From sequence record SRR31156797_16013: 32,044 nucleotides of DNA; one strand, 5' to 3'. A model generated the notes under the pieces. That model saw only the letters and a program-made list of their open reading frames with translations, was not told the DNA's origin and did no database searches. The first letter of the stretch is position 1, and the number at the start of each line of letters is the position of its first letter. This document shows, one piece after another, positions 11,765 to 30,938 of the stretch. The position numbers and the translations under genes were made by a program.

Positions 11765-13159
11765 ATGATTAAATTTTGGAAAAACAAATGGTTTAAATTA
11801 GCCCTTGCAGGTGGTTTCTACTTGTTTTGGGTAATTTGGATGGATAGTTATTTATGGTTATTAGGACTTCCAATCATATTTGATATTTATATTACCAAAA
11901 AAGTACATTGGGCTTTCTGGAAAAAGAAAGGCGTTAAAAAACAAAAAAAGATTATCGAGTGGATTGACGCTCTGATATTTGCCGTGATTGCAGCATCATT
12001 CATACGTATGTTTTTTATTGAAGCTTTTACCATCCCAACCTCATCAATGGAGAAAACCATGCGTGTTGGAGATTATTTGTTTGTAAGTAAATACCATTAT
12101 GGACCTAGAAAACCAATGACGCCTATTTCATTCCCGTTTGTTCATCATACTATGCCATTGTCAACGTATACAAAAAGTTATTCAACTGCAGTTCAATGGG
12201 AATATGATCGAATGGGCGGCTTAACTGACCTTGAGAGAAATGATATCGTAGTTTTTAACTTCCCTGAAGGTGATACAGTTATTATTGATTACCAAAATCA
12301 AAGCTATTATCAAATCATAAGAAATGAAGCTCAAGCCATGATGAATAGTGACCGTATGCGGGGAGCTATCCATCCATATAAATTCTACGAAAAGAAAGTT
12401 CGTAATATGTTGCTATCGCAATATGAATGGCATGTGCGACCTTTAGATAAGCGGGAAAATTATATCAAACGTTGCGTGGCAGTTGCTGGCGATGATATTG
12501 AGATTAAAGACGGTATAATGTATATCAACGGTCAAAAACAAGAACGATTTGAAGATATGCAATACAAATATTACATATACACCAACGGACAAGCTATCAA
12601 TAAAAGAGTTCTAAGAGATATGGAAATATCTATGGAAGATCAAAGCCAATCTTTTATTAAAAGAGGGGTGTACATTTTACCATTAACAAAAAAAATGGTT
12701 GACAAACTTCGTACTTTTCCAATCGTAGATTCTGTTGTTAGAAAAATTGATCGCGGTGATCATTCAGACTATATTTTCCCTCATGATAGTCGTTATAAAT
12801 GGACACAAGATAATTTTGGGCCATTACATATTCCAAAAGCAGGAGAAACAATTAATCTAAACATGGATAATATTTCCATTTACAAACGACTAATCAAACT
12901 GTATGAACATAATGATCTTAGTATCAAAAACAATAAGATTTATATCAACGGTGAGGAAGCATCTTCTTATACCATTAAACAAGACTATTATTGGATGATG
13001 GGTGACAGTCGTCACAGTTCACAAGATTCACGCTTCTGGGGATTTGTACCTGAAGATCACGTTGTTGGAAAACCATTATTTATATGGTTATCGCTAGATA
13101 AAGATGAAACATTGTTCAATAAAATAAGATGGAACAGAATGTTCCGTTCAATTGATTAA
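11765..13159 (+). CDS. lepB: Signal peptidase I (long Bacteroidota type)
   Basis: IPTSSME (catalytic Ser94), GDYLFVSK, NYIKRC (Lys235), MMGDSRHSSQDSRFWG, IRWNR. Confidence 0.95.
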   Translation: MIKFWKNKWFKLALAGGFYLFWVIWMDSYLWLLGLPIIFDIYITKKVHWAFWKKKGVKKQKKIIEWIDALIFAVIAASFIRMFFIEAFTIPTSSMEKTMRVGDYLFVSKYHYGPRKPMTPISFPFVHHTMPLSTYTKSYSTAVQWEYDRMGGLTDLERNDIVVFNFPEGDTVIIDYQNQSYYQIIRNEAQAMMNSDRMRGAIHPYKFYEKKVRNMLLSQYEWHVRPLDKRENYIKRCVAVAGDDIEIKDGIMYINGQKQERFEDMQYKYYIYTNGQAINKRVLRDMEISMEDQSQSFIKRGVYILPLTKKMVDKLRTFPIVDSVVRKIDRGDHSDYIFPHDSRYKWTQDNFGPLHIPKAGETINLNMDNISIYKRLIKLYEHNDLSIKNNKIYINGEEASSYTIKQDYYWMMGDSRHSSQDSRFWGFVPEDHVVGKPLFIWLSLDKDETLFNKIRWNRMFRSID

Positions 13160-13193
13160 AAAGCATACTTTTTGTATGTATTGAAACGAACAA

Positions 13194-14093
13194 ATGAACG
13201 CTAAAATGAAGAAAGTATTAAAAATAGTTTTACCAATGGGCATTGTAATATGGATTGTCTTTCAATTTATGTTGACAAGACATACGCTTGAAGACTATAC
13301 AATGGAAGCCACTATTAAAAAAGGTGAATGTGTTTGGATCAATAAAATGGCTGTAGGAGCATATTTTATGGGAATGAAAATGCCTGGTCTTTCAAGCATT
13401 GAAAATAATGATGTAATCTATTTTGCCTACCCTGAAGATTTTGACAAACCAATTTACGATAAACGGCGTCTTGTATCGAGAGTAATTGGATTACCCGGAG
13501 ACCGGATTAGAATCAATTATACAGATATAACTGTAAACAAAATGCTGTTAACTAATCCGGAAGGTTTGCAAAAAGCATATCGTGTAATGCTCAAACCTGA
13601 TGCAGGGAAAAAACAATTCTTTGAAGAAAATGGAATTAGTGGCGCAAAAGCACTTGTTGATAGTTTAGAAATATATGAAGTTCCCCTAAGTGAGCAAATG
13701 GTTTCTAAACTTCGTGAAAATCCAAAAGTTGATTATGTGCGCATGATCAAAATGCGCAGAGGTGGAGCTTACCGTATTTTTCCTAAATCGCCATTTGTAT
13801 CATGGAGTGAAGATAATTATGGCCCATTACGTATACCAAAAGCCGGGGATGTTGTAAAACTTGACTACAGAAACATTGATTTCTACAAAAATATTATTGA
13901 TTATTTTGAAGGAAATAAATTCAGGCAGCACAACAGAGAGATATTCATTAACGGTAAACTTTCCAATTCATATACATTTAAAAACAACTACTACTTTGTA
14001 ATGGATGATAATCGTGATAGGATGTTCGATAGTCGTGAATTTGGTTTTGTACCCGAATCATATGTTTTAGGAAAGGTTTTAGGTATTGAATAA
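13194..14093 (+). CDS. Signal peptidase I paralogue (S26 family) with substituted catalytic residues; start may be ATG 13206
   Basis: Collinear with LepB (RVIGLPGD, DNYGPLRIPKAG, DSREFGFVPE) but Ser->Thr (DYTME) and Lys->Ser (LVSRV). Confidence 0.85.
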   Translation: MNAKMKKVLKIVLPMGIVIWIVFQFMLTRHTLEDYTMEATIKKGECVWINKMAVGAYFMGMKMPGLSSIENNDVIYFAYPEDFDKPIYDKRRLVSRVIGLPGDRIRINYTDITVNKMLLTNPEGLQKAYRVMLKPDAGKKQFFEENGISGAKALVDSLEIYEVPLSEQMVSKLRENPKVDYVRMIKMRRGGAYRIFPKSPFVSWSEDNYGPLRIPKAGDVVKLDYRNIDFYKNIIDYFEGNKFRQHNREIFINGKLSNSYTFKNNYYFVMDDNRDRMFDSREFGFVPESYVLGKVLGIE

Positions 14094-16669: not shown

Positions 16670-19600
16670 TTATTCCACTATAATTTTCTTAATAAATTGC
16701 TTGCCACTATTTTCAAACAATACATAATAAATTCCTGCAGGTTGGGCAGTTAAATCTATTTGTTGCGGTTGACTTAGATCAAGTGTTTTTTCTTCCAGTA
16801 AATTTGCTTTTTGATCTAATATTTTCACACTTACATTTCCTGTCATTCCTTCAACAGAGCCAATGTTAAACAGCCCATTACCCGGATTTGGAAAGATGTT
16901 TATATTAGCTTCTTTTACCACATCAATTCCAACACCATGAACTATAATGTAACCGCTTTTTGTTTCAGTATCGCTGTTATAGTCATTTGCTGCGATCAAA
17001 GTAACTGTATAAACTCCCGGCGCCAAGTATTTATGCGATGGAGATACTTCTACACTGGTATTATCATCTCCAAAATCCCAATCAAAGTCGTCGGCATTGG
17101 TAGACAGGTTAGTAAAGAATACGGTTAACGTATCGTAATTACTCTCTGTCGGACTACCTTCAAATTGAGCCACAGCTTGCAATGCATTTACTGTAATGTA
17201 GTTATTTTTTGTTTCAGTATCAGATCCGGTTGCATTTGTAGCTGTTAAGGCCACCGTATAACTTCCTGGTTCGGTATATTCATGCGATGGATTTTGATCT
17301 GAACTTGTACCAGTATCACCAAAGTCCCAGCTCCATGAAGTAGCATCAGTTGAAGCATCAGTAAATGAAACTGTTAAAGGTGCATTACCTGAAGTTGGAG
17401 AACCTGAGAATGCTGCCGTTGGCACAATTGAAATATCTACTGACGCTGTATTCGATTCTGCTGATGAACCGGTTGGATCAACGTAATTAGCAATCATATG
17501 GTAATCATAACTTCCAATATCCAAATTCATATCTGTATATGTTACCTGAGCAGGATCTGCTATTGTAGTCAATAGTGCGTCATTTCTATAAATTGTATAA
17601 TTATCAGGTATTGAACCAATATAGACATCATCTATACACAATTGATAGCCATCATTATATTCATATACAAAGGCTAATTGAATTGTTTCAGTAGCATATG
17701 CAGATAAATCTAACTCAACAGGAGAAGCATATTGGTTATTTGATGATTCATCAGATAAATCCAAAATACTTGTCCAGACCCCGTTGTCTTTAACATATAT
17801 ATGAAACAAGGTTTGAAAGGTTGAAGTACTATTATACCACATCCAGAAAGACAATTTAGTTGAAGCAGCCGGCACAAATTCAGGTGTAATCAGCCAATTA
17901 AAGTCAGGTGCAGTATAACCTAATCCTGCTGAGTAAACACCCGTATGTATATACTGCGGATCAGTTCCACCAAAAGATGTTTCATCAATTTGGCTCCATG
18001 TTGCTCCGGTTGGATCACTTAAAGCACCAAAGGCTGTGGTTGAATATTGCACATCCCATCCCGCAGGTGGCCATGTACCTTCAAATCCTTCTGAAATTAA
18101 TGGAGCATCATTAGGGACATTCCAGGTTAATACTACATCATCCTGGTTCTGCACATTAGCTTGTAAATTTGAAACAGGCGGAAAGTCTGGCATTTCTACT
18201 ACGGTAATATAGCTTGTTTTAGTCTCAGTATCTGAACCTTGACTATTCTCAACAGTAAGACTAACGTTATATGTTCCTGTTGCAGCATAACTAACCACTG
18301 GATTTTGTATATCTGAAGTGGATGGAGTAGCTCCGGTAAAGGTCCAGTCCCATGTATCTGGAGAATTTGTCGATAAATCATTGAATTGCACATTTTGTCC
18401 CACATACACAGTTGTATTAACAGCCTCAAAATCTGCCACTGGAGCGGCAGCAGGACTAGTATATAAATCACTTTCCCATAATCCTCTACCAAAAGTAGCA
18501 GCTCTTAATTTACTATTTGCAGGTGTTGCATCGTAGTATATTTCTAATTCAGTTACAACCACATTTGGCAAATTTGTCATAAATGGTACCCAATCAGCTG
18601 AACCACGTTTCATATAAACACCTCGGTCTGTTCCTACATATAATTCATTTAAACTAGTTTCTTGTTTATTGTGCACAATAGTCATTACAGGTAAATTTGG
18701 TAATCCACTGGATATATTTGTCCAACTTGATCCTCCATTTGTCGATTCATATACCCTGTTTCCATCATAACCACCCATTGTAACCCAAATGGTATTGGGA
18801 TCTGTTGCATGTATAGCTACATAAGTTATGCTGTAGTTATAAGTTGGTAGAGTACCAGTAATGTCTGACCAACTGGTTCCTCCATTTGAAGTATACCAAA
18901 TATCATCAGGGTCAGCAATCACCATCACACTGCTATTTGATTCAGCAATTGCAAGTGATCTAAACTTATCTGAGCTTTCTAGCGTGCCAAGTTGCGACCA
19001 ACTGTCACCTCTATTTGTTGATTTCCATATTTTATCGTAACCAACAATTAGGGTCTCATTGTCATTGGGGTCAATCACATAAGGTGAAACCCACCATCCA
19101 TTATTTCCACCTGTAATATTATCTGAAATAGTTGTATAATTTGACCATCCATTAGTAGTGCGATAAAGGGTTCCATAGACGTATGTTGCATATTGAACAT
19201 CAGAATTAACAGGGTCAATGGCACATTCCATTCCATCTCCACCTGTTACATCATCCCAAAAGCTACCATTATACATTTTGGAACCATTATCCTGATTACC
19301 AATTATGGTCATATCAGTTTCTGACTGACTTACGCCCAATCGATATATTTGCGTGATATACAAATCGTTACTTAAATCAGTCCAGGAAGTTCCACTGTTT
19401 GTAGTTTTGTAAATTCCACCATCATTTCCTTCGAAAAGCGTACCGTCACTCTCTCTGTATTTTAAAACGTGTTTATCGGCATGAACTTCAGGAGAGCCTG
19501 AAAAGTTATAACCAGTATAACTTGTCCACATATTATTGTTCACCCATGATGATCCACCATTAGCAGACCGCCAGGTATTTACACCTCCAATAAATACTTC

Positions 19601-20836
19601 ATTTTTATCGGTAGGATTTACAGCAATACATAAATCATATGAACCCTGCCCTGTATTTGAACCAGAGCCATCACTATAGTATCCAAGTAATGAACCATTT
19701 GTTGAGTTCCCATCAAACTCTAAAGTGAAATTGGCACCAGAATCTGTACTTTTATAAATACCTTTAAGTCCTCTATCGCTATTTGCAACTATAGCATACA
19801 CATATGTTGCATCATGAGGCGTAACGGCCAATTCTGCACGACGTGAACTTGCAAAATACTCAACTTGCGTCCAACTTGCACCATTATCTGTAGAACGATA
19901 AATTTCAGCTGCTGTATAATCACTTGTTGATGCATAAACCACATCTGAGTCTCCCGGTTTAAATTCCATATCAATGAAATAGGCGCCACTTTGTTCTAAT
20001 GTCCAACTTGTACCTCCATTTGTAGTGCGATAAATTCCATTTGTAGTAGCCGCTAACATAATTTGGCCATTCGTTGGATCAACCAAAATACGTCCTATTA
20101 ATTCTCTCTCATCAACATCAAAACTAAGACCAGTAGTAGTCCATGTTTGACCACCATCCGTTGATTTAAGTATTCCAATAGAATTATTGTCAGCCTTGAC
20201 ACCACCTCCTAAAGTCCAAGAGCTACCTCCATCGCGATCGCCAGTGGCTATATACATTGTATTTGATGTAGTAAAGTCATTAGCAAGGGCAATATCAGAA
20301 ACACCAATTACATCGTTGCCATCTGTCATACACTCCCAGGTTGATCCACCATTTGTAGTTTTCCACAATCCACCGGAGGGTGTTCCTATCCAAAATGTAT
20401 TGTTATCTGTGGGATGAAATTCAATGCAATTCACGCGTCCAAGCCCAGCATAGCCACCTGGAGTAGAACTTGGTCCTACAGCAGACCAATCACCTGAAGA
20501 ACTTTTTCCAGGATTCTCCGCTTTATATCTAGCAAACTGCGCAGCTGCACTAGTTTTAGGAAAGGCAGTTGTTGTCCTATTTACACGTAGGTCCCAAAAA
20601 TATTCCCACCGTTTAAAAAGTTTATATCCAGGCATTTTAACCCATTCTCCATCAATTAATTTTTTTCCTTCAACAATCTGATTTTCTGCTTCCCAACGAT
20701 CAAAAGCGTTTCGAAAATCGTTTAGGGTTAATTCTTCATTGTTTTTAGGTGTTTCAATGTATTCCATCCAGGGTTGTGAAACACCCAAAGAAGCAATGAA
20801 ACAGACCATTAAAATGGTAAGTAATAAATTTTTCAT
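16670..20836 (-). CDS. T9SS-secreted multidomain protein: VPS10/BNR (Asp-box) beta-propellers, PKD, FN3-nested cleaved-adhesin domain, two PKD domains, type A CTD
   Basis: Signal peptide ending VS|Q; about 10 S/T-x-D/N-x-G-x-S/T-W repeats; PKD motifs (WDWTF, WSWDFGD, WDFGD); CTD IFPNP...GIYYV...KKIIVE. Confidence 0.9.
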   Translation of the reverse strand: MKNLLLTILMVCFIASLGVSQPWMEYIETPKNNEELTLNDFRNAFDRWEAENQIVEGKKLIDGEWVKMPGYKLFKRWEYFWDLRVNRTTTAFPKTSAAAQFARYKAENPGKSSSGDWSAVGPSSTPGGYAGLGRVNCIEFHPTDNNTFWIGTPSGGLWKTTNGGSTWECMTDGNDVIGVSDIALANDFTTSNTMYIATGDRDGGSSWTLGGGVKADNNSIGILKSTDGGQTWTTTGLSFDVDERELIGRILVDPTNGQIMLAATTNGIYRTTNGGTSWTLEQSGAYFIDMEFKPGDSDVVYASTSDYTAAEIYRSTDNGASWTQVEYFASSRRAELAVTPHDATYVYAIVANSDRGLKGIYKSTDSGANFTLEFDGNSTNGSLLGYYSDGSGSNTGQGSYDLCIAVNPTDKNEVFIGGVNTWRSANGGSSWVNNNMWTSYTGYNFSGSPEVHADKHVLKYRESDGTLFEGNDGGIYKTTNSGTSWTDLSNDLYITQIYRLGVSQSETDMTIIGNQDNGSKMYNGSFWDDVTGGDGMECAIDPVNSDVQYATYVYGTLYRTTNGWSNYTTISDNITGGNNGWWVSPYVIDPNDNETLIVGYDKIWKSTNRGDSWSQLGTLESSDKFRSLAIAESNSSVMVIADPDDIWYTSNGGTSWSDITGTLPTYNYSITYVAIHATDPNTIWVTMGGYDGNRVYESTNGGSSWTNISSGLPNLPVMTIVHNKQETSLNELYVGTDRGVYMKRGSADWVPFMTNLPNVVVTELEIYYDATPANSKLRAATFGRGLWESDLYTSPAAAPVADFEAVNTTVYVGQNVQFNDLSTNSPDTWDWTFTGATPSTSDIQNPVVSYAATGTYNVSLTVENSQGSDTETKTSYITVVEMPDFPPVSNLQANVQNQDDVVLTWNVPNDAPLISEGFEGTWPPAGWDVQYSTTAFGALSDPTGATWSQIDETSFGGTDPQYIHTGVYSAGLGYTAPDFNWLITPEFVPAASTKLSFWMWYNSTSTFQTLFHIYVKDNGVWTSILDLSDESSNNQYASPVELDLSAYATETIQLAFVYEYNDGYQLCIDDVYIGSIPDNYTIYRNDALLTTIADPAQVTYTDMNLDIGSYDYHMIANYVDPTGSSAESNTASVDISIVPTAAFSGSPTSGNAPLTVSFTDASTDATSWSWDFGDTGTSSDQNPSHEYTEPGSYTVALTATNATGSDTETKNNYITVNALQAVAQFEGSPTESNYDTLTVFFTNLSTNADDFDWDFGDDNTSVEVSPSHKYLAPGVYTVTLIAANDYNSDTETKSGYIIVHGVGIDVVKEANINIFPNPGNGLFNIGSVEGMTGNVSVKILDQKANLLEEKTLDLSQPQQIDLTAQPAGIYYVLFENSGKQFIKKIIVE

Positions 20837-22951: not shown

Positions 22952-24406
22952 ATGTTATTTAACTCAATTGAATTTGCGATTTTCTTACCCATTGTGTTTT
23001 TGTTGTATTGGTTTTTAAACCGAAAGAACATACAAATTCAGAATAGTTTACTTATACTAGCCAGCTATATCTTTTATGGCTGGTGGGATTGGCGGTTTTT
23101 ATCTCTTATAATCTTTAGTTCTTTTGTGGATTATTTTGTTGGTCTTGGTTTAGGAAAAACAGAACAAAAAAGAAAAAGAAAACTACTACTGCTTACTAGC
23201 ATCCTGGTAAACCTCGGATTCCTGGGGTTCTTTAAATACTTTAATTTCTTTGCCCAAAGCTTTGCAGATGCATTCACTTTATTTGGTCAACATATTGAAC
23301 CAACACGACTAAATATCATACTACCTGTTGGCATAAGCTTTTATACATTTCAAACATTAAGCTATTCAATTGATGTATACAAGAGAAAGATGGAACCCAC
23401 AAAAGATGCACTCTCATTCTTTGCTTTTGTAAGCTTTTTTCCACAATTAGTAGCCGGCCCGATTGAGAGAGCCACAAACCTTTTACCCCAATTCTATAAG
23501 AAAAGAAAATTTGATTATGGAAATGCTGTAGATGGTATGCGTCAGATTCTATGGGGATTATTCAAAAAAATAGTAATAGCAGATAATAGTGCTGAATTTG
23601 CCAACCAAATTTTCAACAATTCTGCCGATATGAATGGTAGCACACTGTTGCTTGGTGCCCTGTTCTTTACTTTTCAAATATATGGAGACTTTTCAGGTTA
23701 CTCAGATATTGCAATAGGTACAGCCAGATTGTTTGGGTTTAGGTTAATGCGAAACTTTGCATTTCCTTATTTCTCCAGAGATATTGCTGAATTTTGGCGC
23801 CGGTGGCATATTTCATTATCAACATGGTTTAGAGATTATCTTTACATTCCCCTTGGCGGTAGCAGAGGTAGTACAGCCATGAAAATTCGTAATACTTTTA
23901 TAATATTTATTGTCAGTGGATTTTGGCATGGAGCAAACTGGACATTCATCATTTGGGGAGCTTTAAATGCTATTTATTTTTTACCGTTATTATTGACAAA
24001 AAGAAACAGAAACTACATAGAAATAATTGCATTTGATAGAACATTTCCCCCTTTCAGAGAAATCATATCAATGCTCATCACCTTTGCTCTTACGATTTTT
24101 GCATGGATATTTTTCAGAGCTGAAAGCGTTTCTCATGCAATAAATTATATTGGAGAAATACTGTCTCCTTCGCTATTTGAAATCCCTAAATTTGATGGTA
24201 TTGCAAAAGCTATCATGACCTTCTTGTTTATTGGATTTTTCCTTATCATCGAATGGATTGGCAGAAAAGGTCAATATGCTATTGAAGACATAGATCATTG
24301 GTTTAATCGAGTTTTCCGCTGGAGTTTTTATGTGGTTATAATACTTCTAATATATTTCTATGGTAATAATGCCGGTAAAATTGAATTTATTTATTTCCAA
24401 TTTTAA
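22952..24406 (+). CDS. MBOAT family O-acyltransferase (AlgI/PatA/DltB-like)
   Basis: MLFNS, LPVGISFYTFQ, FFPQLVAGPIER, DFSGYSDIA, FWRRWHISLSTWFRDYLYIPLGG, SGFWHGA (catalytic His). Confidence 0.95.
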   Translation: MLFNSIEFAIFLPIVFLLYWFLNRKNIQIQNSLLILASYIFYGWWDWRFLSLIIFSSFVDYFVGLGLGKTEQKRKRKLLLLTSILVNLGFLGFFKYFNFFAQSFADAFTLFGQHIEPTRLNIILPVGISFYTFQTLSYSIDVYKRKMEPTKDALSFFAFVSFFPQLVAGPIERATNLLPQFYKKRKFDYGNAVDGMRQILWGLFKKIVIADNSAEFANQIFNNSADMNGSTLLLGALFFTFQIYGDFSGYSDIAIGTARLFGFRLMRNFAFPYFSRDIAEFWRRWHISLSTWFRDYLYIPLGGSRGSTAMKIRNTFIIFIVSGFWHGANWTFIIWGALNAIYFLPLLLTKRNRNYIEIIAFDRTFPPFREIISMLITFALTIFAWIFFRAESVSHAINYIGEILSPSLFEIPKFDGIAKAIMTFLFIGFFLIIEWIGRKGQYAIEDIDHWFNRVFRWSFYVVIILLIYFYGNNAGKIEFIYFQF

Positions 24407-24419
24407 GTAAATCTATAGA

Positions 24420-25301
24420 ATGCGAAAGTTTCTAATAAATATCAGCCTGTTCTTAACAATTTTAATAATCATAAATATTGTTTTAAATATTTATGCTGAT
24501 AAAATTTATCTGGCAAGCTATAAATTGCATCAATTAGAATATAATTCATATTTGCTTGGAGACTCACACGGAATTCCACTTGGTCAAAACTTAGAAAGTT
24601 ATGGTATATATAACTTTTCAGCCGAAAGCGACAGTTATATTGATATGAAGCGCAAACTCAATTTTCTTATAAAAAATACATCTGTTGATACTATTTTCAT
24701 TACAATTGATGATCATACCTTAAGTCCATACAGAGAAACACTCAACAATGCGGATAGGTCAGTGTATTATGCAACAATTGATGACTATGAAAATATATTC
24801 ATTTATGTCAAAGAAAAAATATTAAGTAAAATTCCATTTTTTCAACCAAAAATGGCATCAGTTTTAAAAGTATATTTCTACGCTCAGTTAAAATCACTTT
24901 TTAGCCATGGCACAGATAAAAAAGAGCAATCAAATGAATGGTCAAAATTGAACAGTGATAGGCGTATTAAAACTGCCCACAAAAGATTCTTAAAACAATT
25001 TCCTACCAAAGATAATTCAGAGCTGCTTAAAGAAACACTTTTAGAGATTGTAAAAAAATGTAAAAAGCATAAAATAACGCTTATCGGAATCCAATTTCCA
25101 TTAAGTCAAGAATATATCAATGCAATGGGGAACACTACTTATGGTGCTGCAGAACTTTTTAAAAGTTTAGAGATTAAAACTTTAGATTTCACAAACCTCT
25201 TTGTAAACCAGAAAGATTATTTTAAAGATCAGGATCATTTAAGTAAAAAAGGCAGTCGTATTTTCACTCAGAAGTTTATTGATAAACTTTCTCAATTGTA
25301 A
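24420..25301 (+). CDS. Membrane-anchored SGNH/GDSL-like protein, likely MBOAT partner (AlgJ/DltD-like)
   Basis: N-terminal TM anchor, block I LLGDSHG, block V FKDQDHL; 13 nt downstream of the MBOAT gene. Confidence 0.75.
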   Translation: MRKFLINISLFLTILIIINIVLNIYADKIYLASYKLHQLEYNSYLLGDSHGIPLGQNLESYGIYNFSAESDSYIDMKRKLNFLIKNTSVDTIFITIDDHTLSPYRETLNNADRSVYYATIDDYENIFIYVKEKILSKIPFFQPKMASVLKVYFYAQLKSLFSHGTDKKEQSNEWSKLNSDRRIKTAHKRFLKQFPTKDNSELLKETLLEIVKKCKKHKITLIGIQFPLSQEYINAMGNTTYGAAELFKSLEIKTLDFTNLFVNQKDYFKDQDHLSKKGSRIFTQKFIDKLSQL

Positions 25302-25350: not shown

Positions 25351-26343
25351 TTACAACGCAATATTCAAAGAAAAAACCTCTACAGGATGTTCTTTTCCTT
25401 TCAAATCAACTTCACCATGTGAAGTATAGTCCCATTTTTCATCTATTATATCTTTTACATCGTCTGAAAAAGCTATTGCTCTTCTAATTTTTCTCGTGTA
25501 GGCTTCCAGTCGGGATGCAACATTCACCGGATCACCAATAATAGTATAATCCTGCTTAAAAGATGATCCCATATTGCCCTCCATTACCTCACCACAACTA
25601 ATACCAAAACCTGTCCGCAGCTTTTTAATAATGGAGTTTTCTGTTTTGATATTTCGCTGCATGAGTTTTATTTCATCCAGAATTTCAACACATGCACGTA
25701 CAGCCTTATCTGCCTTCTCAATATCATAAAATGCCATAATACCATCTCCAAGAAATTTTGTTACTTCACCTCCATAAGCTGTAATATTATTGGAGCATAT
25801 TTCAAAGTATAAATTAATAAATTCAGATACCTCCTCTACCGGCCGATTTTCACAAATACTTGAAAACGAAACAATATCACCAAAAACAATCACTTTTTGA
25901 GTCTTTCGTAATGGCGAATCAAGCGGATTAAGGCCCATATTGAAAATATTAGAAACTGCAGGTTGGGTATATTTTAAAATAATGCTGTGCGAATCCATCA
26001 CATTTTGAAGCAAAATACGAATTGGCATCATTATATCAGTATTGTTCTCAGCCAGATTTATGGTCTTCATTGACCATTGGGGGAAAAGTCGTTCAGTAAT
26101 ATTTTGTTCTGTTTTTAAAGACATTACTTCCATATGTCTTTCATCCTCCTTTATATACTCATATACTTCATCAACAATTTGGTCCTCACCTTCAAGTATT
26201 TGAAAGAATAATCCCTGTACATAAATGAGTACACCTGTGATGTTTTTATCCTTATTATTCTCAGCTGATTCTCTTCCTATTTCTTCAATTTCAGAGCGAG
26301 GAAGAGCACTTGACATTCTGCTTATGTAAGTAATTCGCTTCAT
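25351..26343 (-). CDS. Photoactivated adenylyl cyclase (BLUF + class III AC; bPAC/BlaC/OaPAC-like), 330 aa
   Basis: ATG at 26343 (MKRITYIS). BLUF Y6, N30, NITGVL, FFQ48ILEG, DERH, W90-S-M92; cyclase FGD156, VTK196FLGD200, EGNMGS, D265-Y-T267, VN274VASR278, LKGK. Confidence 0.95.
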   Translation of the reverse strand: MKRITYISRMSSALPRSEIEEIGRESAENNKDKNITGVLIYVQGLFFQILEGEDQIVDEVYEYIKEDERHMEVMSLKTEQNITERLFPQWSMKTINLAENNTDIMMPIRILLQNVMDSHSIILKYTQPAVSNIFNMGLNPLDSPLRKTQKVIVFGDIVSFSSICENRPVEEVSEFINLYFEICSNNITAYGGEVTKFLGDGIMAFYDIEKADKAVRACVEILDEIKLMQRNIKTENSIIKKLRTGFGISCGEVMEGNMGSSFKQDYTIIGDPVNVASRLEAYTRKIRRAIAFSDDVKDIIDEKWDYTSHGEVDLKGKEHPVEVFSLNIAL

Positions 26344-26358
26344 GTAACACAAGTTACA
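26343..26358. promoter_or_regulatory. Palindromic putative CRP/FNR-family operator TGTAAC-ACAA-GTTACA
   Basis: Perfect 6-bp inverted repeat with TGTAA-N6-TTACA geometry, overlapping the first base of the PAC start codon. Confidence 0.45.
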
Positions 26359-26429
26359 AATTTTTGCAACACTATTCGTTCATCATCAATATTCTTTTTA
26401 TTAATAATTCATACTCTAGGAAATCATAA

Positions 26430-26437
26430 TAACTTTG
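26430..26437 (+). promoter_or_regulatory. Bacteroidota -7 element for the hemolysin III gene
   Basis: TAACTTTG 21 nt upstream of ATG 26459. Confidence 0.65.
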
Positions 26438-26458
26438 AAGTGATAAAAGTGAAGAATT

Positions 26459-27127
26459 ATGTCAAACAAAGCAATAGCCGGACGCTTCAGTAAAAAAGAA
26501 GAAATAGCCAACGCCATTTCCCATGGAATAGGTACAGCTTTATCAATAACAGGCTTGGTATTCATGGTGATTATTGCTGTCAAATTCGGTACAGTGAGAG
26601 GCGTAGTGAGTGCAAGTATTTTTGGCGCGACATTAATTCTCCTTTACCTCTCCTCTACTCTGAACCACAGTTTGAAGGTAGGTAGGGTAAAAGATTTCTT
26701 TCATAACTTTGATCAGGTTGCCATATACTTGCTTATTGCCGGAACATATACTCCCCTTGCTTTGGTAACGTTAAAAAATGATTGGGGTTGGACTATGTTC
26801 GGGTTTCAATGGGGTTTTGCTCTGGCAGGCATAATCGCAAAGTTTTTCTTACCTAATAAATTCGAAAAAGGGGTCAATATCTTTTTCATTGCTTCATATA
26901 TTATCATGGGCTGGATGCTGTTGTTTTTTCTAAATCCTCTTTTCCGCAATATGCCGAATATGGGCATGGTTTTTATTTTTATTGGTGGAGCTTTTTATAC
27001 ATTAGGCACTATCTTTTTTAAGATGGAAAAGATGCCATACCATCACCTCATTTGGCACTTATTTGTAATTGGCGGAAGTGTAATGCATGTATTGGCAGTG
27101 ATGATTTATGTGTTGCCTGTAAAGTAA
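26459..27127 (+). CDS. Hemolysin III / PAQR family membrane protein (TrhA-like)
   Basis: EEIANAISHG, SSTLNH, DQVAIYLLIAGTYTP, HLIWHLFV; seven TM segments. Confidence 0.92.
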   Translation: MSNKAIAGRFSKKEEIANAISHGIGTALSITGLVFMVIIAVKFGTVRGVVSASIFGATLILLYLSSTLNHSLKVGRVKDFFHNFDQVAIYLLIAGTYTPLALVTLKNDWGWTMFGFQWGFALAGIIAKFFLPNKFEKGVNIFFIASYIIMGWMLLFFLNPLFRNMPNMGMVFIFIGGAFYTLGTIFFKMEKMPYHHLIWHLFVIGGSVMHVLAVMIYVLPVK

Positions 27128-27363: not shown

Positions 27364-28077
27364 ATGTTAAAACAAATCTATTTTATACTCTTCCTATTCT
27401 TAATTGTAAGTTGTGAAGAAGTAGAGCCAACTGACAACCCAAATATGAACTATCCTGAAGATATTATTGTTCAATACAAATTCGATGGAGATGCGAATGA
27501 TTATTCTCAATACAATCTTCATGGAGAAATTTTTGGTGCAACACTCACAACTGATAGATATGGAATAGATAATAAAGCTTTATATTTTGATGGAATAGAC
27601 GACTACGTAAAAGTAGAATATGACGAAGTCCTAAATATTGACACGCCCTTTACTTTTACCGCTTGGATAAATCCAGAATATCTAGTTCATGATATATATG
27701 CAGACTCATATGTAATTTTTGCACAATCTGCTCCCTATGATGAAATATACAGTCTAAATGTCAATTATAGATCTTTTATGTGTGGACATATCGGATATCA
27801 ATGTTACACCCCAGTTAATGAATGGACAATGTATGCTGTTACATTAGATAATGACAGCGTCATTTCTTTTTATAGAAATGATGTAAGAATTGCACGCACA
27901 ACCTTAACATCAATTATTTCAGCATTAAATGGAGAATATGATGGTGATCTATATATCGGAAAAGATGCAAACGAATTTTTTCAGTATTTCCAAGGTAAAA
28001 TAGATGATATAATAATTTTCAATCGGTGCCTGGATAAAGATGAAATTGTAGACTTGTATAATAATGAATATTTCTGA
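27364..28077 (+). CDS. LamG/concanavalin-like domain lipoprotein
   Basis: Lipobox IVS|C then EEVE; YKFDGDAND, DRYG...ALYFDG, TFTAWI, FQGKIDDIIIFNRCL. Confidence 0.85.
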   Translation: MLKQIYFILFLFLIVSCEEVEPTDNPNMNYPEDIIVQYKFDGDANDYSQYNLHGEIFGATLTTDRYGIDNKALYFDGIDDYVKVEYDEVLNIDTPFTFTAWINPEYLVHDIYADSYVIFAQSAPYDEIYSLNVNYRSFMCGHIGYQCYTPVNEWTMYAVTLDNDSVISFYRNDVRIARTTLTSIISALNGEYDGDLYIGKDANEFFQYFQGKIDDIIIFNRCLDKDEIVDLYNNEYF

Positions 28078-28383: not shown

Positions 28384-29505
28384 ATGAAAAGGATATTAAA
28401 GATGATTGGACTTTCAATATTGGGAATTATTGTTTTAGGAGTTATTGGCATTGCATTGTTTATGACATTCAGTCCGCAATTTGGTGGTAGTTTATCGAAA
28501 CAGCAGAAAGCTGAATATGAAAAACTCGACAATTTCAAAAAAGGCAAATTCCAAAACCCGGAACCAAGCCCCATGGATATGAATTTCAGGAAGGTTTTTA
28601 AAGAGATGATGAACAAGTCACCAAACCGAAGTCCAAATGAAAATATCCCGGTAGAAAAAATTGATTCTGCAACCATTGCAAACTACAATTCAGAAAAAAC
28701 ACGACTTACCTGGTTTGGACACTCCACGTTTTTACTGGAAATGGATGGGAAAAAAATCCTCATTGATCCAATGTTGAGCAAAAAACCTTCACCTGTCTCC
28801 TTTTCCGGACCTACAAGATACTCAGATGAACTACCAATAACTGCCGAAAAACTACCCTACATTGATGCCGTAATTCTCTCCCACGACCATTACGATCACC
28901 TGGACTATAAGACCATTAAAGCTATCAAAGATAAAGTCGGACAATTCTACACTCCTTTGGGCGTTGGCAATCACCTGAAAAAATGGGGTGTGGATGAGGC
29001 GATCATTCATGAACTAAACTGGAGTGATAGCATCCAATTTGAACATATCAGTTTGGCTTGCACACCAGCACGTCATTTCTCTGGGCGTGGGTTATTTAAC
29101 CGAGCTACGACACTCTGGTGTTCCTGGGTAATCCAAGGAAAAAATGACAATATCTTTTTCAGCGGTGATAGTGGTTATGGTAAGCATTTCAAAGAAATTG
29201 GCGAACAATATGGACCATTCGATATCTCTTTAATGGAATGCGGCCAGTACAATGAAAACTGGAAACTCATTCACATGATGCCCGAGCAAACAGCCCAAGC
29301 AACAGTTGATCTGAAAAGCAAACTCATAATGCCCATTCATTGGGGCGCTTTCACCCTGGCTTTTCACAACTGGACAGATCCTATTGAACGATCACTTGTC
29401 AAAGCAAATGAACTGGGTATGCCCATGGCTACTCCAAGAATTGGAGAACCAATTATTATTGGATCGGAAGAGATTCCACAGGAAAAATGGTGGGAACAAA
29501 TTTAA
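28384..29505 (+). CDS. MBL-fold metallo-hydrolase, NAPE-PLD/RomA-like, N-terminally membrane anchored
   Basis: TWFGHST, SHDHYDHLD, PARHFSGRG, FSGDSGY, PIHWGAF. Confidence 0.9.
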   Translation: MKRILKMIGLSILGIIVLGVIGIALFMTFSPQFGGSLSKQQKAEYEKLDNFKKGKFQNPEPSPMDMNFRKVFKEMMNKSPNRSPNENIPVEKIDSATIANYNSEKTRLTWFGHSTFLLEMDGKKILIDPMLSKKPSPVSFSGPTRYSDELPITAEKLPYIDAVILSHDHYDHLDYKTIKAIKDKVGQFYTPLGVGNHLKKWGVDEAIIHELNWSDSIQFEHISLACTPARHFSGRGLFNRATTLWCSWVIQGKNDNIFFSGDSGYGKHFKEIGEQYGPFDISLMECGQYNENWKLIHMMPEQTAQATVDLKSKLIMPIHWGAFTLAFHNWTDPIERSLVKANELGMPMATPRIGEPIIIGSEEIPQEKWWEQI

Positions 29506-30206: not shown

Positions 30207-30938
30207 ATGGAAAAATATAAGGACATCACCAGGCGTACGATTTATGCTATCATTCTCTTCGGAATTACAATGGGTATGTTCGAAGCTGCAGTAGTTATAT
30301 ACTTGCGGGAATTATATTATCCCGGCGGATTTACCTTTCCGCTGCAGCTTACATCAGAAAGTGTTGCAGTAACAGAATTTTTAAGAGAAATTGCATCGCT
30401 TTTCATGATTGGTACTGTTGCATGGTTAGGTGGTAAGACTTTCACACAGCGTTTTGCCTGGTTTCTAATTATTTTTGCAATTTGGGATATTTTCTACTAT
30501 GTTTTTCTAAAAGCCCTTATCGGTTGGCCTGAATCTTTCATGACCTGGGATATTTTATTCCTGATACCTGTACATTGGACCGGCCCTGTTATAACCCCCA
30601 TTATCGCTGCTGTATTGATGATATTGCTTGGCGCCTTTATGCTTCGTTTTTCAGTATTTCGGGAAAAGGCGGCGCGTATCAATCGCCGTGAGTGGTGGTT
30701 GTTAGGCAGCGGAGCGTTCGTTGTATTTGTCTCCTTTATAATTGATTACACGATTTATCTTTTTGAAAACTATGGCCACTTTAGCCAACCAGATTTGATG
30801 GATACGCTCAACAACCTCTCTATTAACTATGTACCTGCAAAGTTTTACTGGTGGATATATATATTAGGGATTGTGCTAATTATATCATCAATAATAATGT
30901 ACGCTCGACGCAATCAAAAAACGTTCATCAGCGATTAA
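30207..30938 (+). CDS. Hypothetical polytopic membrane protein
   Basis: About 6 TM segments; motifs EAAVVIYLR, EFLRE, WDIFYY, WDILFLIP; begins 6 nt after the MOSC gene. Confidence 0.75.
   Translation: MEKYKDITRRTIYAIILFGITMGMFEAAVVIYLRELYYPGGFTFPLQLTSESVAVTEFLREIASLFMIGTVAWLGGKTFTQRFAWFLIIFAIWDIFYYVFLKALIGWPESFMTWDILFLIPVHWTGPVITPIIAAVLMILLGAFMLRFSVFREKAARINRREWWLLGSGAFVVFVSFIIDYTIYLFENYGHFSQPDLMDTLNNLSINYVPAKFYWWIYILGIVLIISSIIMYARRNQKTFISD

What the first reader, a model, noticed from the sequence alone, without database searches (positions are those of the whole stretch)
25351..26343. Intact blue-light-activated adenylyl cyclase (bPAC/OaPAC type) in a Bacteroidota genome
Seen in sequence: a single BLUF domain joined by a helical linker to a class III cyclase. 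The photocycle residues Y6/Q48/W90/M92, linker L111 and Y125, metal ligands D156/D200, transition-state N274/R278 and ATP-selecting K196/D265/T267 are all present. Established knowledge (recalled, not computed): the order and spacing closely match bPAC (Beggiatoa) and OaPAC (Oscillatoria). The characterised single-BLUF PACs I know come from sulfur-oxidising gammaproteobacteria, cyanobacteria and spirochaetes. Inference: this heterotrophic Bacteroidota organism has a light-to-cAMP pathway, possibly acquired horizontally, and the enzyme is a candidate new optogenetic tool.
Basis: partly seen in the sequence, partly recalled or inferred. Interest (0 to 1): 0.85.

Follow-up and report, generated by a model that had tools for sequence, protein, structure and literature searches.

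The report
Blue-light adenylyl cyclase in Salinivirgaceae
The gene encodes an intact relative of the known blue-light-switched cAMP-making enzymes bPAC and OaPAC in a marine-type Bacteroidales bacterium; it is a sound but fairly ordinary new member of a known enzyme family.

Summary
Window 25351-26343 (minus strand) is an intact 330-aa ORF: BLUF domain (1-93), helical linker, class III cyclase domain (151-324). It aligns end to end with the solved photoactivated adenylyl cyclases OaPAC (E 9e-101) and bPAC (E 2e-98). The AlphaFold model (pLDDT 92) hits only OaPAC/bPAC as full-length matches. A homodimer model passes its controls, 0.57 against 0.01. The host is a Salinivirgaceae (Bacteroidales): SHMT 91-92% to named Salinivirgaceae, and a T9SS cargo gene nearby. 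The gene is patchy: 1 of 13 family genomes, and 0 of 400 others in each of an order sample and a phylum sample. In the one positive genome it lies in the same syntenic slot. Its composition is native. PAC homologues are already annotated in Salinivirgaceae, Saprospiraceae, Lewinellaceae and Bacteroidales MAGs. This is therefore a new, uncharacterised member of a known kind. Clade-specific traits are a missing C-terminal tail and M74/L123 at the β4-α3 interface. Photochemistry and activity remain untested.

The parts
25351..26343 (-). Complete CDS of the 330-aa BLUF-cyclase protein (P0001); stop codon at 25351-25353
   Evidence: ORF list and translation. Full-length match to OaPAC and bPAC.
26065..26343 (-). 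BLUF flavin-binding photosensor domain, residues 1-93 (Y6, N30, Q48, D67-R69-H70, W90, M92)
   Evidence: Pfam PF04940, E 4.2e-28, profile 1-92 of 92. Residues checked. Model strands and helices.
25894..26064 (-). Linker, residues 94-150: long α3 helix (102-125; L111, V115, H119, S120, L123, Y125) and handle (128-135; P140)
   Evidence: DSSP on the AF2 model shows helices 102-125 and 128-135. Self-contacts 108/111/115 in the dimer model. Residue conservation.
25372..25893 (-). Class III nucleotidyl cyclase catalytic domain, residues 151-324 (F154, D156, K196, D200, N257, D265, T267, N274, R278, K315)
   Evidence: Pfam PF00211, E 1.3e-17. Foldseek to the bPAC cyclase domain 5mbg: TM 0.88 (target-normalised), rmsd 1.5 Å. 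Residues.
26344..26458 (.). 115-bp divergent intergenic region between the PAC gene and the HlyIII-family gene (26459-27127, + strand); presumed promoter region, not demonstrated
   Evidence: Sequence. Consensus scans give no significant signal: 8 sigma-70-like sites against 5.9 expected in the region scanned. The TANNTTTG motif lies only on the + strand at 26430-26437, upstream of the HlyIII gene.

Best explanation
The gene encodes a soluble homodimeric photoactivated adenylyl cyclase of the bPAC/OaPAC type.

Inferred mechanism, by homology: each BLUF domain binds a flavin. Blue light rearranges the Y6-Q48-flavin hydrogen-bond network, with M92/W90 on strand β5. The change passes through the β4-α3 interface and the parallel α3 coiled coil (L111, V115) to the Y125-N257-P140 network and the 'tongue' of the cyclase domain. 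That raises the activity of two composite active sites formed across the dimer. D156/D200 bind metal on one chain. K196, D265/T267, N274, R278 and K315 bind ATP and the transition state on the other. ATP is converted to cAMP plus pyrophosphate.

In the cell this would add a light input to a cyclic-nucleotide network that the family already has.

Shown here: domain architecture, residue conservation, fold, a dimer model, host taxonomy, distribution and synteny. Inferred: flavin binding, light dependence, product, and physiological role.
For: Pfam BLUF plus Guanylate_cyc, both well over their cut-offs.

End-to-end alignment to solved PACs: OaPAC E 8.9e-101, bPAC E 2.1e-98, one single-residue indel against OaPAC.

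All photocycle, linker, metal, substrate and transition-state residues are present and match the majority residue among 193 homologues.

The residues named as functionally important in bPAC are all conserved once the numbering offset is applied: Tyr7, Leu112/Ile116, Tyr126-Asn257-Pro141, Thr267, Asp157/Asp201, Lys315, Arg278 (passages and section 13 part 1 of preprint PMC13001422).

AF2 model: mean pLDDT 92.2, pTM 0.78. Foldseek ranks 1-23 are all OaPAC or bPAC chains aligned over 326-330 columns. The isolated bPAC cyclase domain fits at rmsd 1.5 Å.

Homodimer model: ipSAE 0.57 against a best control of 0.01. Runs agree in at least 94% of contacts and partner pLDDT is at least 83. This mark was reached by 21 of 30 proteins solved as pairs of one chain and by 0 of 23 solved as single chains. 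The interface uses α3 (108, 111, 115), the partner's BLUF sheet, and 196-200 against 258-274. Because like complexes are solved, this pass may come from memory.

Purifying selection: against the G800 orthologue dN is 0.16 while dS is saturated.

The three positions that Ryu et al. changed to turn bPAC into a guanylyl cyclase keep the ATP-type residues K196, D265 and T267. That three such mutations exist is from PMC4569695 passages. Which residues they are is recalled, not read.

Context: the PAC-bearing relative G800 has 13 cNMP_binding matches, 7 class III cyclase matches and this single BLUF.
Against: Nothing was measured: no spectrum, no activity, no evidence of expression.

The protein lacks the roughly 18-20 residues that follow the last β-strand in most relatives. 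It has 0 residues beyond the window's end, against a median of 18 in 193 sequences. It also ends before the position of E348, which PMC6937261 calls the last residue conserved between OaPAC, bPAC and Euglena PACα. No such short form was tested there.

Position 120 is Ser, where OaPAC has Arg. Preprint PMC13001422 reports that bPAC R121S raises dark activity. Position 123 is Leu, where 134 of 193 have Glu. Light/dark contrast could therefore differ from bPAC.

The monomer model superposes on the crystal chains only at TM 0.65 and rmsd about 15 Å over the full length, so the relative domain placement differs in the monomer prediction.

No promoter signal above chance.
Confidence: 0.85

Rival explanations
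1. The protein is an active adenylyl cyclase, but its photoregulation is weak, absent or inverted (high dark activity). The cause would be that its clade has re-packed the β4-α3 coupling interface and lost the C-terminal tail.
For: S120 stands where OaPAC has R120. bPAC R121S is reported to raise dark activity (PMC13001422, section 13). L123 occurs in only 11 of 193 sequences and M74 in only 9 of 193; both are confined to the window's clade. In bPAC, Leu75/Leu77 contact Glu124/His120. The C-terminal tail is absent. In OaPAC the tail modulates activity (PMC6937261, Results).
Against: Ser is the commonest residue at position 120 in the family (69 of 193, against Arg in 36), so it is not a lesion. 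The whole photocycle set and the Y125-N257-P140 relay are intact. The BLUF domain is under constraint: dN 0.19 with dS saturated. A sensor that no longer regulated anything would be expected to decay. In OaPAC, shortening the tail raised light-driven output and left the BLUF spectral change intact.
Confidence: 0.08
2. The enzyme is light-regulated but makes a product other than cAMP, such as cGMP or another cyclic or linear nucleotide.
For: Pfam PF00211 covers both adenylyl and guanylyl cyclases. Specificity is inferred from a few residues only.
Against: K196, D265 and T267 are the ATP-type residues, conserved in 190, 186 and 191 of 193 sequences, as in bPAC and OaPAC, which make cAMP. bPAC needed three specificity mutations to give cGMP, and even then inefficiently (PMC4569695 passages).
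Confidence: 0.03
3. The gene does not belong to the Bacteroidota host. It would be a mis-assembled or mis-binned fragment, or a very recent transfer on a mobile element.
For: The gene is rare in the phylum: 0 of 400 other genomes in a phylum sample and 0 of 400 in an order sample. In PAC-less G655 the synteny breaks on the PAC side of the HlyIII gene.
Against: The gene sits inside a 32-kb stretch whose flanking genes on both sides are 84-96% identical to those on a contig of a second Salinivirgaceae-family genome, G800, with PAC in the same slot next to HlyIII. Gene GC is 0.345 (z 0.06) and GC3 is 0.269 (z -0.2) against the other 24 ORFs. There are no flanking repeats beyond AT-rich chance matches. 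No integrase or transposase family appears among the window ORFs scanned. No PAC-like hit was found on 72,556 plasmids: all 34 matching records are under 60% identical, and the 15 listed are 26-33%.
Confidence: 0.02

Closest known systems
OaPAC, photoactivated adenylyl cyclase of Oscillatoria acuminata (PDB 4yus, 5x4t, 8qfe and others)
   Same: Same architecture: one BLUF, the α3 linker, and a class III cyclase. The alignment is collinear over 1-327 (E 8.9e-101) with one single-residue indel. Foldseek gives 46% identity over the aligned columns. The window is 48% identical by BLASTP to P0079, a 366-aa protein that scores 711.7 bits end to end against OaPAC. Shared residues: Y6, Q48, W90, M92, L111, Y125, D156, K196, D200.
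   Different: The window protein is 330 aa against 366. It lacks everything after the last β-strand, including the nine C-terminal residues that inhibit OaPAC and the conserved E348 (PMC6937261 Results). It has S120 for R120, L123 for E123 and V115 for L115. It lies in a different, well-supported clade of the family tree; the OaPAC proxy P0079 falls outside the 44-row clade supported at 99.
bPAC / BlaC, photoactivated adenylyl cyclase of Beggiatoa sp. (PDB 5m27, 5m2a, 5mbk and others)
   Same: Full-length alignment over 1-329 (E 2.1e-98). Foldseek identity 45-46%. Counterparts of Tyr7, Leu112, Tyr126, Pro141, Asp157, Asp201, Asn257, Asp265, Thr267, Arg278 and Lys315 are all present.
   Different: The window protein is 330 aa; I recall 350 aa for bPAC (PDB chains are 353). 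There is no C-terminal segment. Ser stands at the position of bPAC Arg121 and Leu at Glu124. This mapping uses the +1 offset given in PMC13001422. I had no stored bPAC sequence to align directly.
Unnamed Bacteroidota PAC homologues in public MAGs: 'family 3 adenylate cyclase [Salinivirgaceae bacterium]' PLX21420.1; Saprospiraceae, Lewinellaceae and Bacteroidales entries
   Same: The Salinivirgaceae entry (P0272) is 330 aa, 76% identical and tail-less. It is identical to the protein in the same syntenic slot of G800. The Saprospiraceae and Lewinellaceae proteins (P0037, P0056, P0072, P0107) and the Bacteroidales MAG protein (L002) share the architecture at 46-51% identity.
   Different: The Saprospiraceae/Lewinellaceae/L002 proteins form a separate clade (support 98) with 6-26-residue tails, read off the A1 blocks and the L002 ORF length. 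None of these is experimentally characterised in any paper I could search.

Membership tests
BLUF-type photoactivated adenylyl cyclase (bPAC/OaPAC type) | N-terminal BLUF domain with the photocycle residues: Tyr on β1, Gln on β3, Met/Trp on β5, and flavin-contacting Asn | tested here: met
   PF04940, E 4.2e-28, covering the full profile. Y6, N30, Q48, W90 and M92 are present. They are conserved in 187-192 of 193 homologues.
BLUF-type photoactivated adenylyl cyclase (bPAC/OaPAC type) | Single long α3 helix joining BLUF to the cyclase, with coiled-coil hydrophobics (OaPAC L111/L115) and the Tyr-Asn-Pro relay (OaPAC Y125/N256/P140) | tested here: met
   Model helix 102-125. L111, V115, Y125, P140 and N257 are present. 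Self-contacts at 108, 111 and 115 in the dimer model. The roles of these residues come from PMC13001422 section 13.
BLUF-type photoactivated adenylyl cyclase (bPAC/OaPAC type) | C-terminal class III cyclase domain with two metal-binding Asp, Lys plus Thr/Asp for ATP, and Asn/Arg for the transition state | tested here: met
   PF00211, E 1.3e-17. D156, D200, K196, D265, T267, N274, R278 and K315 are present. The cyclase domain superposes on bPAC 5mbg at rmsd 1.5 Å.
BLUF-type photoactivated adenylyl cyclase (bPAC/OaPAC type) | Full-length collinear homology to a solved PAC | tested here: met
   OaPAC E 8.9e-101 over 1-327; bPAC E 2.1e-98 over 1-329. Foldseek ranks 1-23 are all PAC chains.
BLUF-type photoactivated adenylyl cyclase (bPAC/OaPAC type) | Parallel homodimer with composite active sites | tested here: inconclusive
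   The model supports pairing: 0.57 against a best control of 0.01, runs agree in at least 94% of contacts, partner pLDDT at least 83. The mark was reached by 21 of 30 proteins solved as pairs of one chain and by 0 of 23 solved as single chains. Like complexes are solved, so the pass may come from memory. It shows likeness, not binding.
BLUF-type photoactivated adenylyl cyclase (bPAC/OaPAC type) | C-terminal segment after the cyclase core, up to the Glu conserved between OaPAC (E348), bPAC and Euglena PACα | tested here: not met
   The protein ends 0 residues beyond the last aligned strand; the family median is 18. The E348 statement is from PMC6937261 Results. This segment is modulatory in OaPAC, not catalytic. 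20 of 193 homologues have fewer than 5 such residues, so I do not treat it as disqualifying.
BLUF-type photoactivated adenylyl cyclase (bPAC/OaPAC type) | Binds FAD/FMN and shows a reversible red shift under blue light | not testable with these tools
   Needs purified protein and UV-vis spectroscopy.
BLUF-type photoactivated adenylyl cyclase (bPAC/OaPAC type) | Light-stimulated synthesis of cAMP from ATP | not testable with these tools
   Needs an enzyme assay or cyaA complementation in light and dark.

The most novel reading that the evidence does not exclude
The window protein may represent a naturally minimal, tail-less PAC lineage of 330 aa. Twelve of the 12 members of its clade have at most 3 residues after the cyclase core. 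The clade has a re-packed β4-α3 coupling interface (M74/L123 in place of L/E). The lineage has been kept by vertical descent in a sub-lineage of anaerobic Salinivirgaceae that scavenge cyanobacteria in microbial mats. There it could act as the only flavin light sensor, feeding a pre-existing network of about 13-15 cNMP-binding proteins. A non-phototroph could then track the diel cycle or its depth relative to its phototrophic prey. Its light sensitivity, dark activity or kinetics might differ usefully from bPAC.
Probability: 0.25. Interest if true: 0.5.

Novelty: new member of a known kind. Interest (0 to 1): 0.3.

Why it matters
PACs are widely used optogenetic actuators, yet only a few natural ones have been characterised (from recall: bPAC, OaPAC, TpPAC, LiPAC, NgPAC and the Euglena PACs). 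This clade offers a shorter natural scaffold. It lacks the C-terminal segment that throttles OaPAC (PMC6937261) and carries natural variation at α3 positions implicated in dark activity. It could therefore inform structure-function work or yield a variant tool.

For microbial ecology, it suggests that some non-phototrophic, mat-associated Bacteroidales couple blue light to cAMP signalling.

Neither point changes how PACs are understood. The gene family, fold and mechanism are known, and close homologues are already in public databases under generic names.

Tried and rejected
Closed or unavailable resources:
- No whole genome is held for the window, so 'own genome' searches were impossible.
- Paper supplements were stated to be closed, so I did not open them. 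Supplement S4 of PMC4844311, a list of BLUF-bearing species by phylum, might already list Bacteroidetes BLUF-cyclases.

Searches that gave nothing useful:
- A metagenome-contig scan with the single protein found nothing.
- The repeat with clade alignment A2 returned 80 loci, none more than about 51% identical. Context conservation could not be tested there.
- RNA runs: no RNA holder was listed.
- Plasmids: 34 records matched, none at 60% identity or more; the 15 listed (26-33%) are Rhizobium, Sinorhizobium, Ensifer and Phyllobacterium records. No PAC.
- NCBIfam has no model that hits the protein.
- PMC10837130 held none of the residue terms I searched.
- PMC11629205 gave only irrelevant matches, 'black' for 'BlaC'.

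Signals not above chance:
- Sigma-70-type promoter scan: 8 sites against 5.9 ± 2.7 expected.
- The Bacteroidetes -7 motif TANNTTTG (recalled) gave 45 matches against 51.8 expected, and none upstream of the PAC gene on its strand.
- Flanking repeats: only short AT-rich pairs.

Incomplete or indecisive analyses:
- I could not place the OaPAC or bPAC sequences themselves in the tree, because PDB chains are not stored proteins. A 13-residue OaPAC motif was found in none of 395 stored proteins. I used P0079 as a proxy. P0084 proved closer to OaPAC than to bPAC, so bPAC has no proxy.
- The AU test on the 96-row tree did not finish in four calls. I replaced it with a 38-row set.
- I rejected the idea that S120 is an unusual lesion, because Ser is the commonest residue there.
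- Neither 'two independent acquisitions in Bacteroidota' nor 'one' is established. The 96-row tree forces at least 2 changes. The 38-row tree does not. The AU test does not reject one clade (p 0.128).
Full report
**1. The observation**

The minus strand of the window carries an intact ORF at 25351..26343. The listed ORF starts at a TTG (26352). The ATG three codons downstream (26343) gives MKRITYIS..., the N-terminus shared by nearly all homologues. I take it as the start, giving 330 residues (P0001).

Pfam finds a complete BLUF domain at residues 1-93 (E 4.2e-28). It finds a class III nucleotidyl cyclase domain at 151-324 (E 1.3e-17). A weak third hit (TEX47, E 1.2e-07) overlaps the BLUF and linker region.

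Against all PDB sequences, the ten best matches, all at E ≤ 5e-49, are the photoactivated adenylyl cyclases:
- OaPAC: E 8.9e-101, query 1-327 on chain 1-326.
- bPAC: E 2.1e-98, query 1-329.

Isolated cyclases and short BLUF proteins follow at E 1e-18 and weaker. The printed OaPAC alignment has a single one-residue indel.

**2. Conservation, fold and assembly**

I collected 193 full-length homologues:
- 165 stored proteins that passed a coverage filter.
- The two N-terminally cut P0002 and P0004.
- 26 ORFs translated from loci.

In a MAFFT alignment of these, the window has the majority residue at all photochemical and catalytic sites:

| Site | Count of 193 |
|---|---|
| Y6 | 187 |
| Q48 | 192 |
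| W90 | 192 |
| M92 | 187 |
| Y125 | 187 |
| P140 | 190 |
| D156 | 188 |
| K196 | 190 |
| D200 | 190 |
| N257 | 183 |
| D265 | 186 |
| T267 | 191 |
| N274 | 188 |
| R278 | 176 |
| K315 | 164 |

These are the residues that preprint PMC13001422 names as important in bPAC and OaPAC. I read passages and section 13 part 1. The list there is Tyr7, Leu112/Ile116 (OaPAC L111/L115), the Tyr126-Asn257-Pro141 network, ribose-binding Thr267, metal ligands Asp157/Asp201, Lys315 and Arg278.

On numbering: the window equals OaPAC numbering, and bPAC minus 1, up to about residue 228. After the one-residue insertion it equals bPAC numbering.

An AlphaFold2 model built on 33 sequences has mean pLDDT 92.2 and pTM 0.78, with no segment below 50. 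Foldseek against the PDB puts OaPAC and bPAC chains at ranks 1-23, each aligned over 326-330 columns. The isolated bPAC cyclase domain (5mbg) fits at rmsd 1.5 Å. Full-length TM is only about 0.65 (rmsd ~15 Å), meaning the monomer model places the two domains differently from the crystal dimers.

A two-copy model passed its controls:
- Score 0.57 against a best control of 0.01.
- Runs agree in at least 94% of contacts, and partner pLDDT is at least 83.
- The mark was reached by 21 of 30 proteins solved as pairs of one chain and by 0 of 23 solved as single chains.

The symmetric interface runs along α3 (108, 111, 115), between α3 and the partner's BLUF sheet, and between 196-200 and 258-274 of the cyclase domains. 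This is the PAC arrangement. Since such dimers are solved, the pass may come from memory.

**3. Who carries it**

A 1388-aa neighbour ends in a Por_Secre_tail (T9SS sorting) domain. The window's serine hydroxymethyltransferase is 91-92% identical to proteins named Salinivirgaceae bacterium or Salinivirga sp.. Salinivirgaceae is a family of Bacteroidales. The host assignment to Bacteroidota therefore holds and can be narrowed to that family.

According to a passage in PMC12590107, citing Hania et al. 2017 (which I did not read), the type species Salinivirga cyanobacteriivorans comes from a hypersaline microbial mat. It specialises in degrading cyanobacterial biomass in the lower mat layers.

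**4. Distribution and history**

The exact protein is not in the 15-billion-protein collection. The nearest relatives are 77-78% identical (P0271, P0002, P0004) and 76% identical (P0003). The P0003 cluster holds PLX21420.1, 'family 3 adenylate cyclase [Salinivirgaceae bacterium]'.

Overall numbers:
- 426 proteins match at E ≤ 1e-20 among 1970 candidates.
- 110 clusters at 50% identity match at E ≤ 1e-30.

Named hits include Saprospiraceae (3), Lewinellaceae (1), Desulfobacteraceae/Desulfonema/Desulfococcaceae and Oscillatoriales. In genome contigs, 11 of the 80 kept loci are full-length. They come from Riflebacteria, a Bacteroidales MAG, Pseudanabaena, Methylococcaceae (4, counting the Methylobacter genome), Nitrosomonas, Leptospiraceae, an unclassified gammaproteobacterium and an unclassified bacterium.

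Whole-genome searches with P0001 at E ≤ 1e-30:

| Sample | Genomes with a match |
|---|---|
| Phylum, even sample | 0 of 400, excluding the Bacteroidales centre G001 |
| Order of G001 | 0 of 400, excluding G001 |
| Family of G655 | 1 of 13 (G800, 76% identity) |

I chose G655 because its SHMT is 91% identical to the window's.

At least 64 of my 193 homologues are at least 65% identical to a Saprospiraceae- or Lewinellaceae-named protein. That set is biased towards the query's best hits. So the architecture is well represented in some Bacteroidota lineages in metagenomes while rare across the phylum.

Synteny. On the G800 contig the PAC gene occupies the same slot as in the window. Identities of the neighbouring genes are:

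| Gene | Identity to window |
|---|---|
| RlmN | 96% |
| 243-aa ORF | 93% |
| MOSC | 87% |
| MBL-fold | 86% |
| HlyIII | 91% |
| PAC | 76% |
| DUF2568 | 58% |
| tocopherol-cyclase-like | 64% |
| T9SS PKD protein | 84% |

In PAC-less G655 the HlyIII (80%) and MBL-fold (77%) genes are adjacent. The DNA on the PAC side of HlyIII encodes unrelated ORFs.

The PAC gene's GC (0.345, z 0.06) and GC3 (0.269, z -0.2) match the other 24 ORFs. Between the window and G800 copies dN is 0.16 and dS is saturated. No PAC was found on plasmids, and there are no flanking repeats of note.

Phylogeny. For the tree I reduced the 193 rows to 96. I kept the window, all named rows, the genome loci and the close clade. 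Other rows were dropped if at least 68% identical to a kept row.

In the quick IQ-TREE tree (SH-aLRT support only) the results were:
- The window lies in a 12-row clade (support 98) with the Salinivirgaceae rows.
- The Saprospiraceae/Lewinellaceae/Bacteroidales-MAG rows form another clade (support 98). A starred branch (98) joins it with Desulfobacterota and Riflebacteria.
- Both clades sit in a 44-row clade (support 99) that also holds Methylococcaceae and Nitrosomonas rows.
- The cyanobacterial rows lie outside it, including P0079, which scores 711.7 bits end to end against OaPAC.

In a 38-row subset the three groups form an unresolved trichotomy. An AU test does not reject a single clade of the two Bacteroidota-associated groups (lnL difference 6.4, p 0.128). 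That grouping was chosen after seeing the tree.

Reading. The family's phyletic pattern mixes phyla and is patchy. That fits horizontal transfer somewhere in its history, or heavy loss. Within this Salinivirgaceae sub-lineage the gene is old, resident and under purifying selection. The number of entries into Bacteroidota is undetermined.

**5. How it most likely works**

By homology, blue light excites the flavin bound in the BLUF domain. Y6 and Q48 re-arrange, with M92/W90 on β5. The signal passes through the β4-α3 contact and the α3 coiled coil to the Y125-N257-P140 relay and the β4-β5 tongue of the cyclase. It then activates the composite active sites of the dimer to convert ATP to cAMP. 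These steps are inferred; none was measured here.

The ATP preference rests on K196, D265 and T267. PMC4569695 passages state that bPAC was turned into a guanylyl cyclase by three specificity mutations. That these are the equivalent three positions is my recollection of Ryu et al. 2010.

A receiving network is plausible. PAC-bearing G800 has 13 cNMP_binding matches, 7 class III cyclase matches and exactly one BLUF, the PAC itself. PAC-less G655 has 15, 5 and 0. The window itself encodes no cNMP-binding protein, and the gene has no evident operon partner. It is divergent from the HlyIII gene and convergent with a 293-aa ORF that matches no family.

**6. What is different**

(a) No C-terminal tail. 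The window and all 12 members of its clade have 0-3 residues beyond the last strand. The family median is 18, and 20 of 193 sequences have fewer than 5. In OaPAC the last nine residues inhibit activity. Truncations down to residue 348 gave 30-60 times more cAMP signal without altering the BLUF spectral shift (PMC6937261: abstract and Results read). The window protein ends about 19 residues before that shortest tested construct.

(b) The β4-α3 interface. M74 occurs in 9 of 193 and L123 in 11 of 193; both are confined to this clade. Most relatives have Leu and Glu at these positions. In bPAC, Leu75/Leu77 contact Glu124/His120.

(c) S120, where OaPAC has Arg. bPAC R121S raises dark activity. But Ser is the family's commonest residue at this position (69 of 193), so this is not peculiar to the window.

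These are variations within the known design.

**7. Comparison and novelty**

All sequence-testable defining features of a bPAC/OaPAC-type PAC are met. Flavin binding and light-driven cAMP synthesis cannot be tested here.

I found no paper in the searchable library that describes a PAC from Bacteroidota:
- Searches returned 0 papers.
- One search listed only unrelated microbiome papers.
- One search returned one 2014 review. Its text counts BLUF-bearing species per phylum, including Bacteroidetes/Chlorobi, but does not discuss BLUF-cyclases there (passages). Its supplement was not available.

Public databases already hold generically annotated homologues from four Bacteroidota groups. The verdict is a new, uncharacterised member of a known kind.

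**8. Scores**

| Item | Value |
|---|---|
| Confidence that this is a functional light-activated adenylyl cyclase | 0.85 |
| Interest | 0.3 |
| Boldest reading still open (a naturally minimal PAC lineage with distinct regulatory properties, serving light-guided behaviour of a cyanobacteria-scavenging anaerobe) | probability about 0.25, interest 0.5 if true |

Noticed in passing
window 22952-25301: A two-gene cassette lies between the PAC gene and the DUF2568 gene in the window. It is absent from the syntenic place in G800, where PAC and DUF2568 are adjacent. The two genes are an MBOAT-family O-acyltransferase (weak DltB-like hit, 147 bits against a cut-off of 375) and a 293-aa ORF that matches no Pfam or NCBIfam family.
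   Followed up: partly
window 27364-28077: A 237-aa Laminin_G_3 (concanavalin-like) protein with a lipoprotein-like N-terminus sits between the HlyIII and MBL-fold genes. Those two genes are adjacent in G655, and this ORF has no match on the G800 contig.
   Followed up: partly
window 26459-27127, 28384-29505, 30207-30938: Three genes next to the PAC gene have GC3 of 0.39-0.40: HlyIII, the MBL-fold gene and a 243-aa ORF with no family. RlmN has 0.33. The other ORFs of the window have 0.21-0.29. These high-GC3 genes are also among the most conserved against G800 (86-93%). This is unexplained.
   Followed up: no
window 16670-20836: A 1388-aa predicted T9SS cargo protein with Sortilin/Vps10 repeats, three PKD domains and a Por_Secre_tail. 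Its C-terminal part is 84% identical to an ORF on the G800 contig.
   Followed up: no
window 11765-14093: Two signal peptidase I (Peptidase_S26) genes lie in tandem, 464 aa and 299 aa.
   Followed up: no
L114-L160 (metagenome contigs): More than 40 metagenome loci match only residues 1 to about 92-127 of the PAC (BLUF plus α3 helix) at about 35-46% identity. Several have room on the contig for more. They may be short BLUF proteins related to the PAC sensor module, or the pattern may simply reflect how the scan chose its patterns.
   Followed up: no
P0128, P0132, P0156, P0129, P0141, P0146 and others: Some representatives carry the whole PAC module inside much longer proteins: 652-1209 aa, for example module at 482-790 of 804 aa or 881-1199 of 1209 aa. 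Others are 800-1000-aa proteins with two matched stretches at 26-30% identity. These may be fused or tandem PAC architectures.
   Followed up: no
P0278 and P0004: An SHMT 95% identical to the window's and a PAC 77% identical to the window's are each reported from a JGI contig of 59,786 bp. If it is the same contig, a third genome keeps SHMT and PAC linked as in the window, where they are about 10 kb apart.
   Followed up: no
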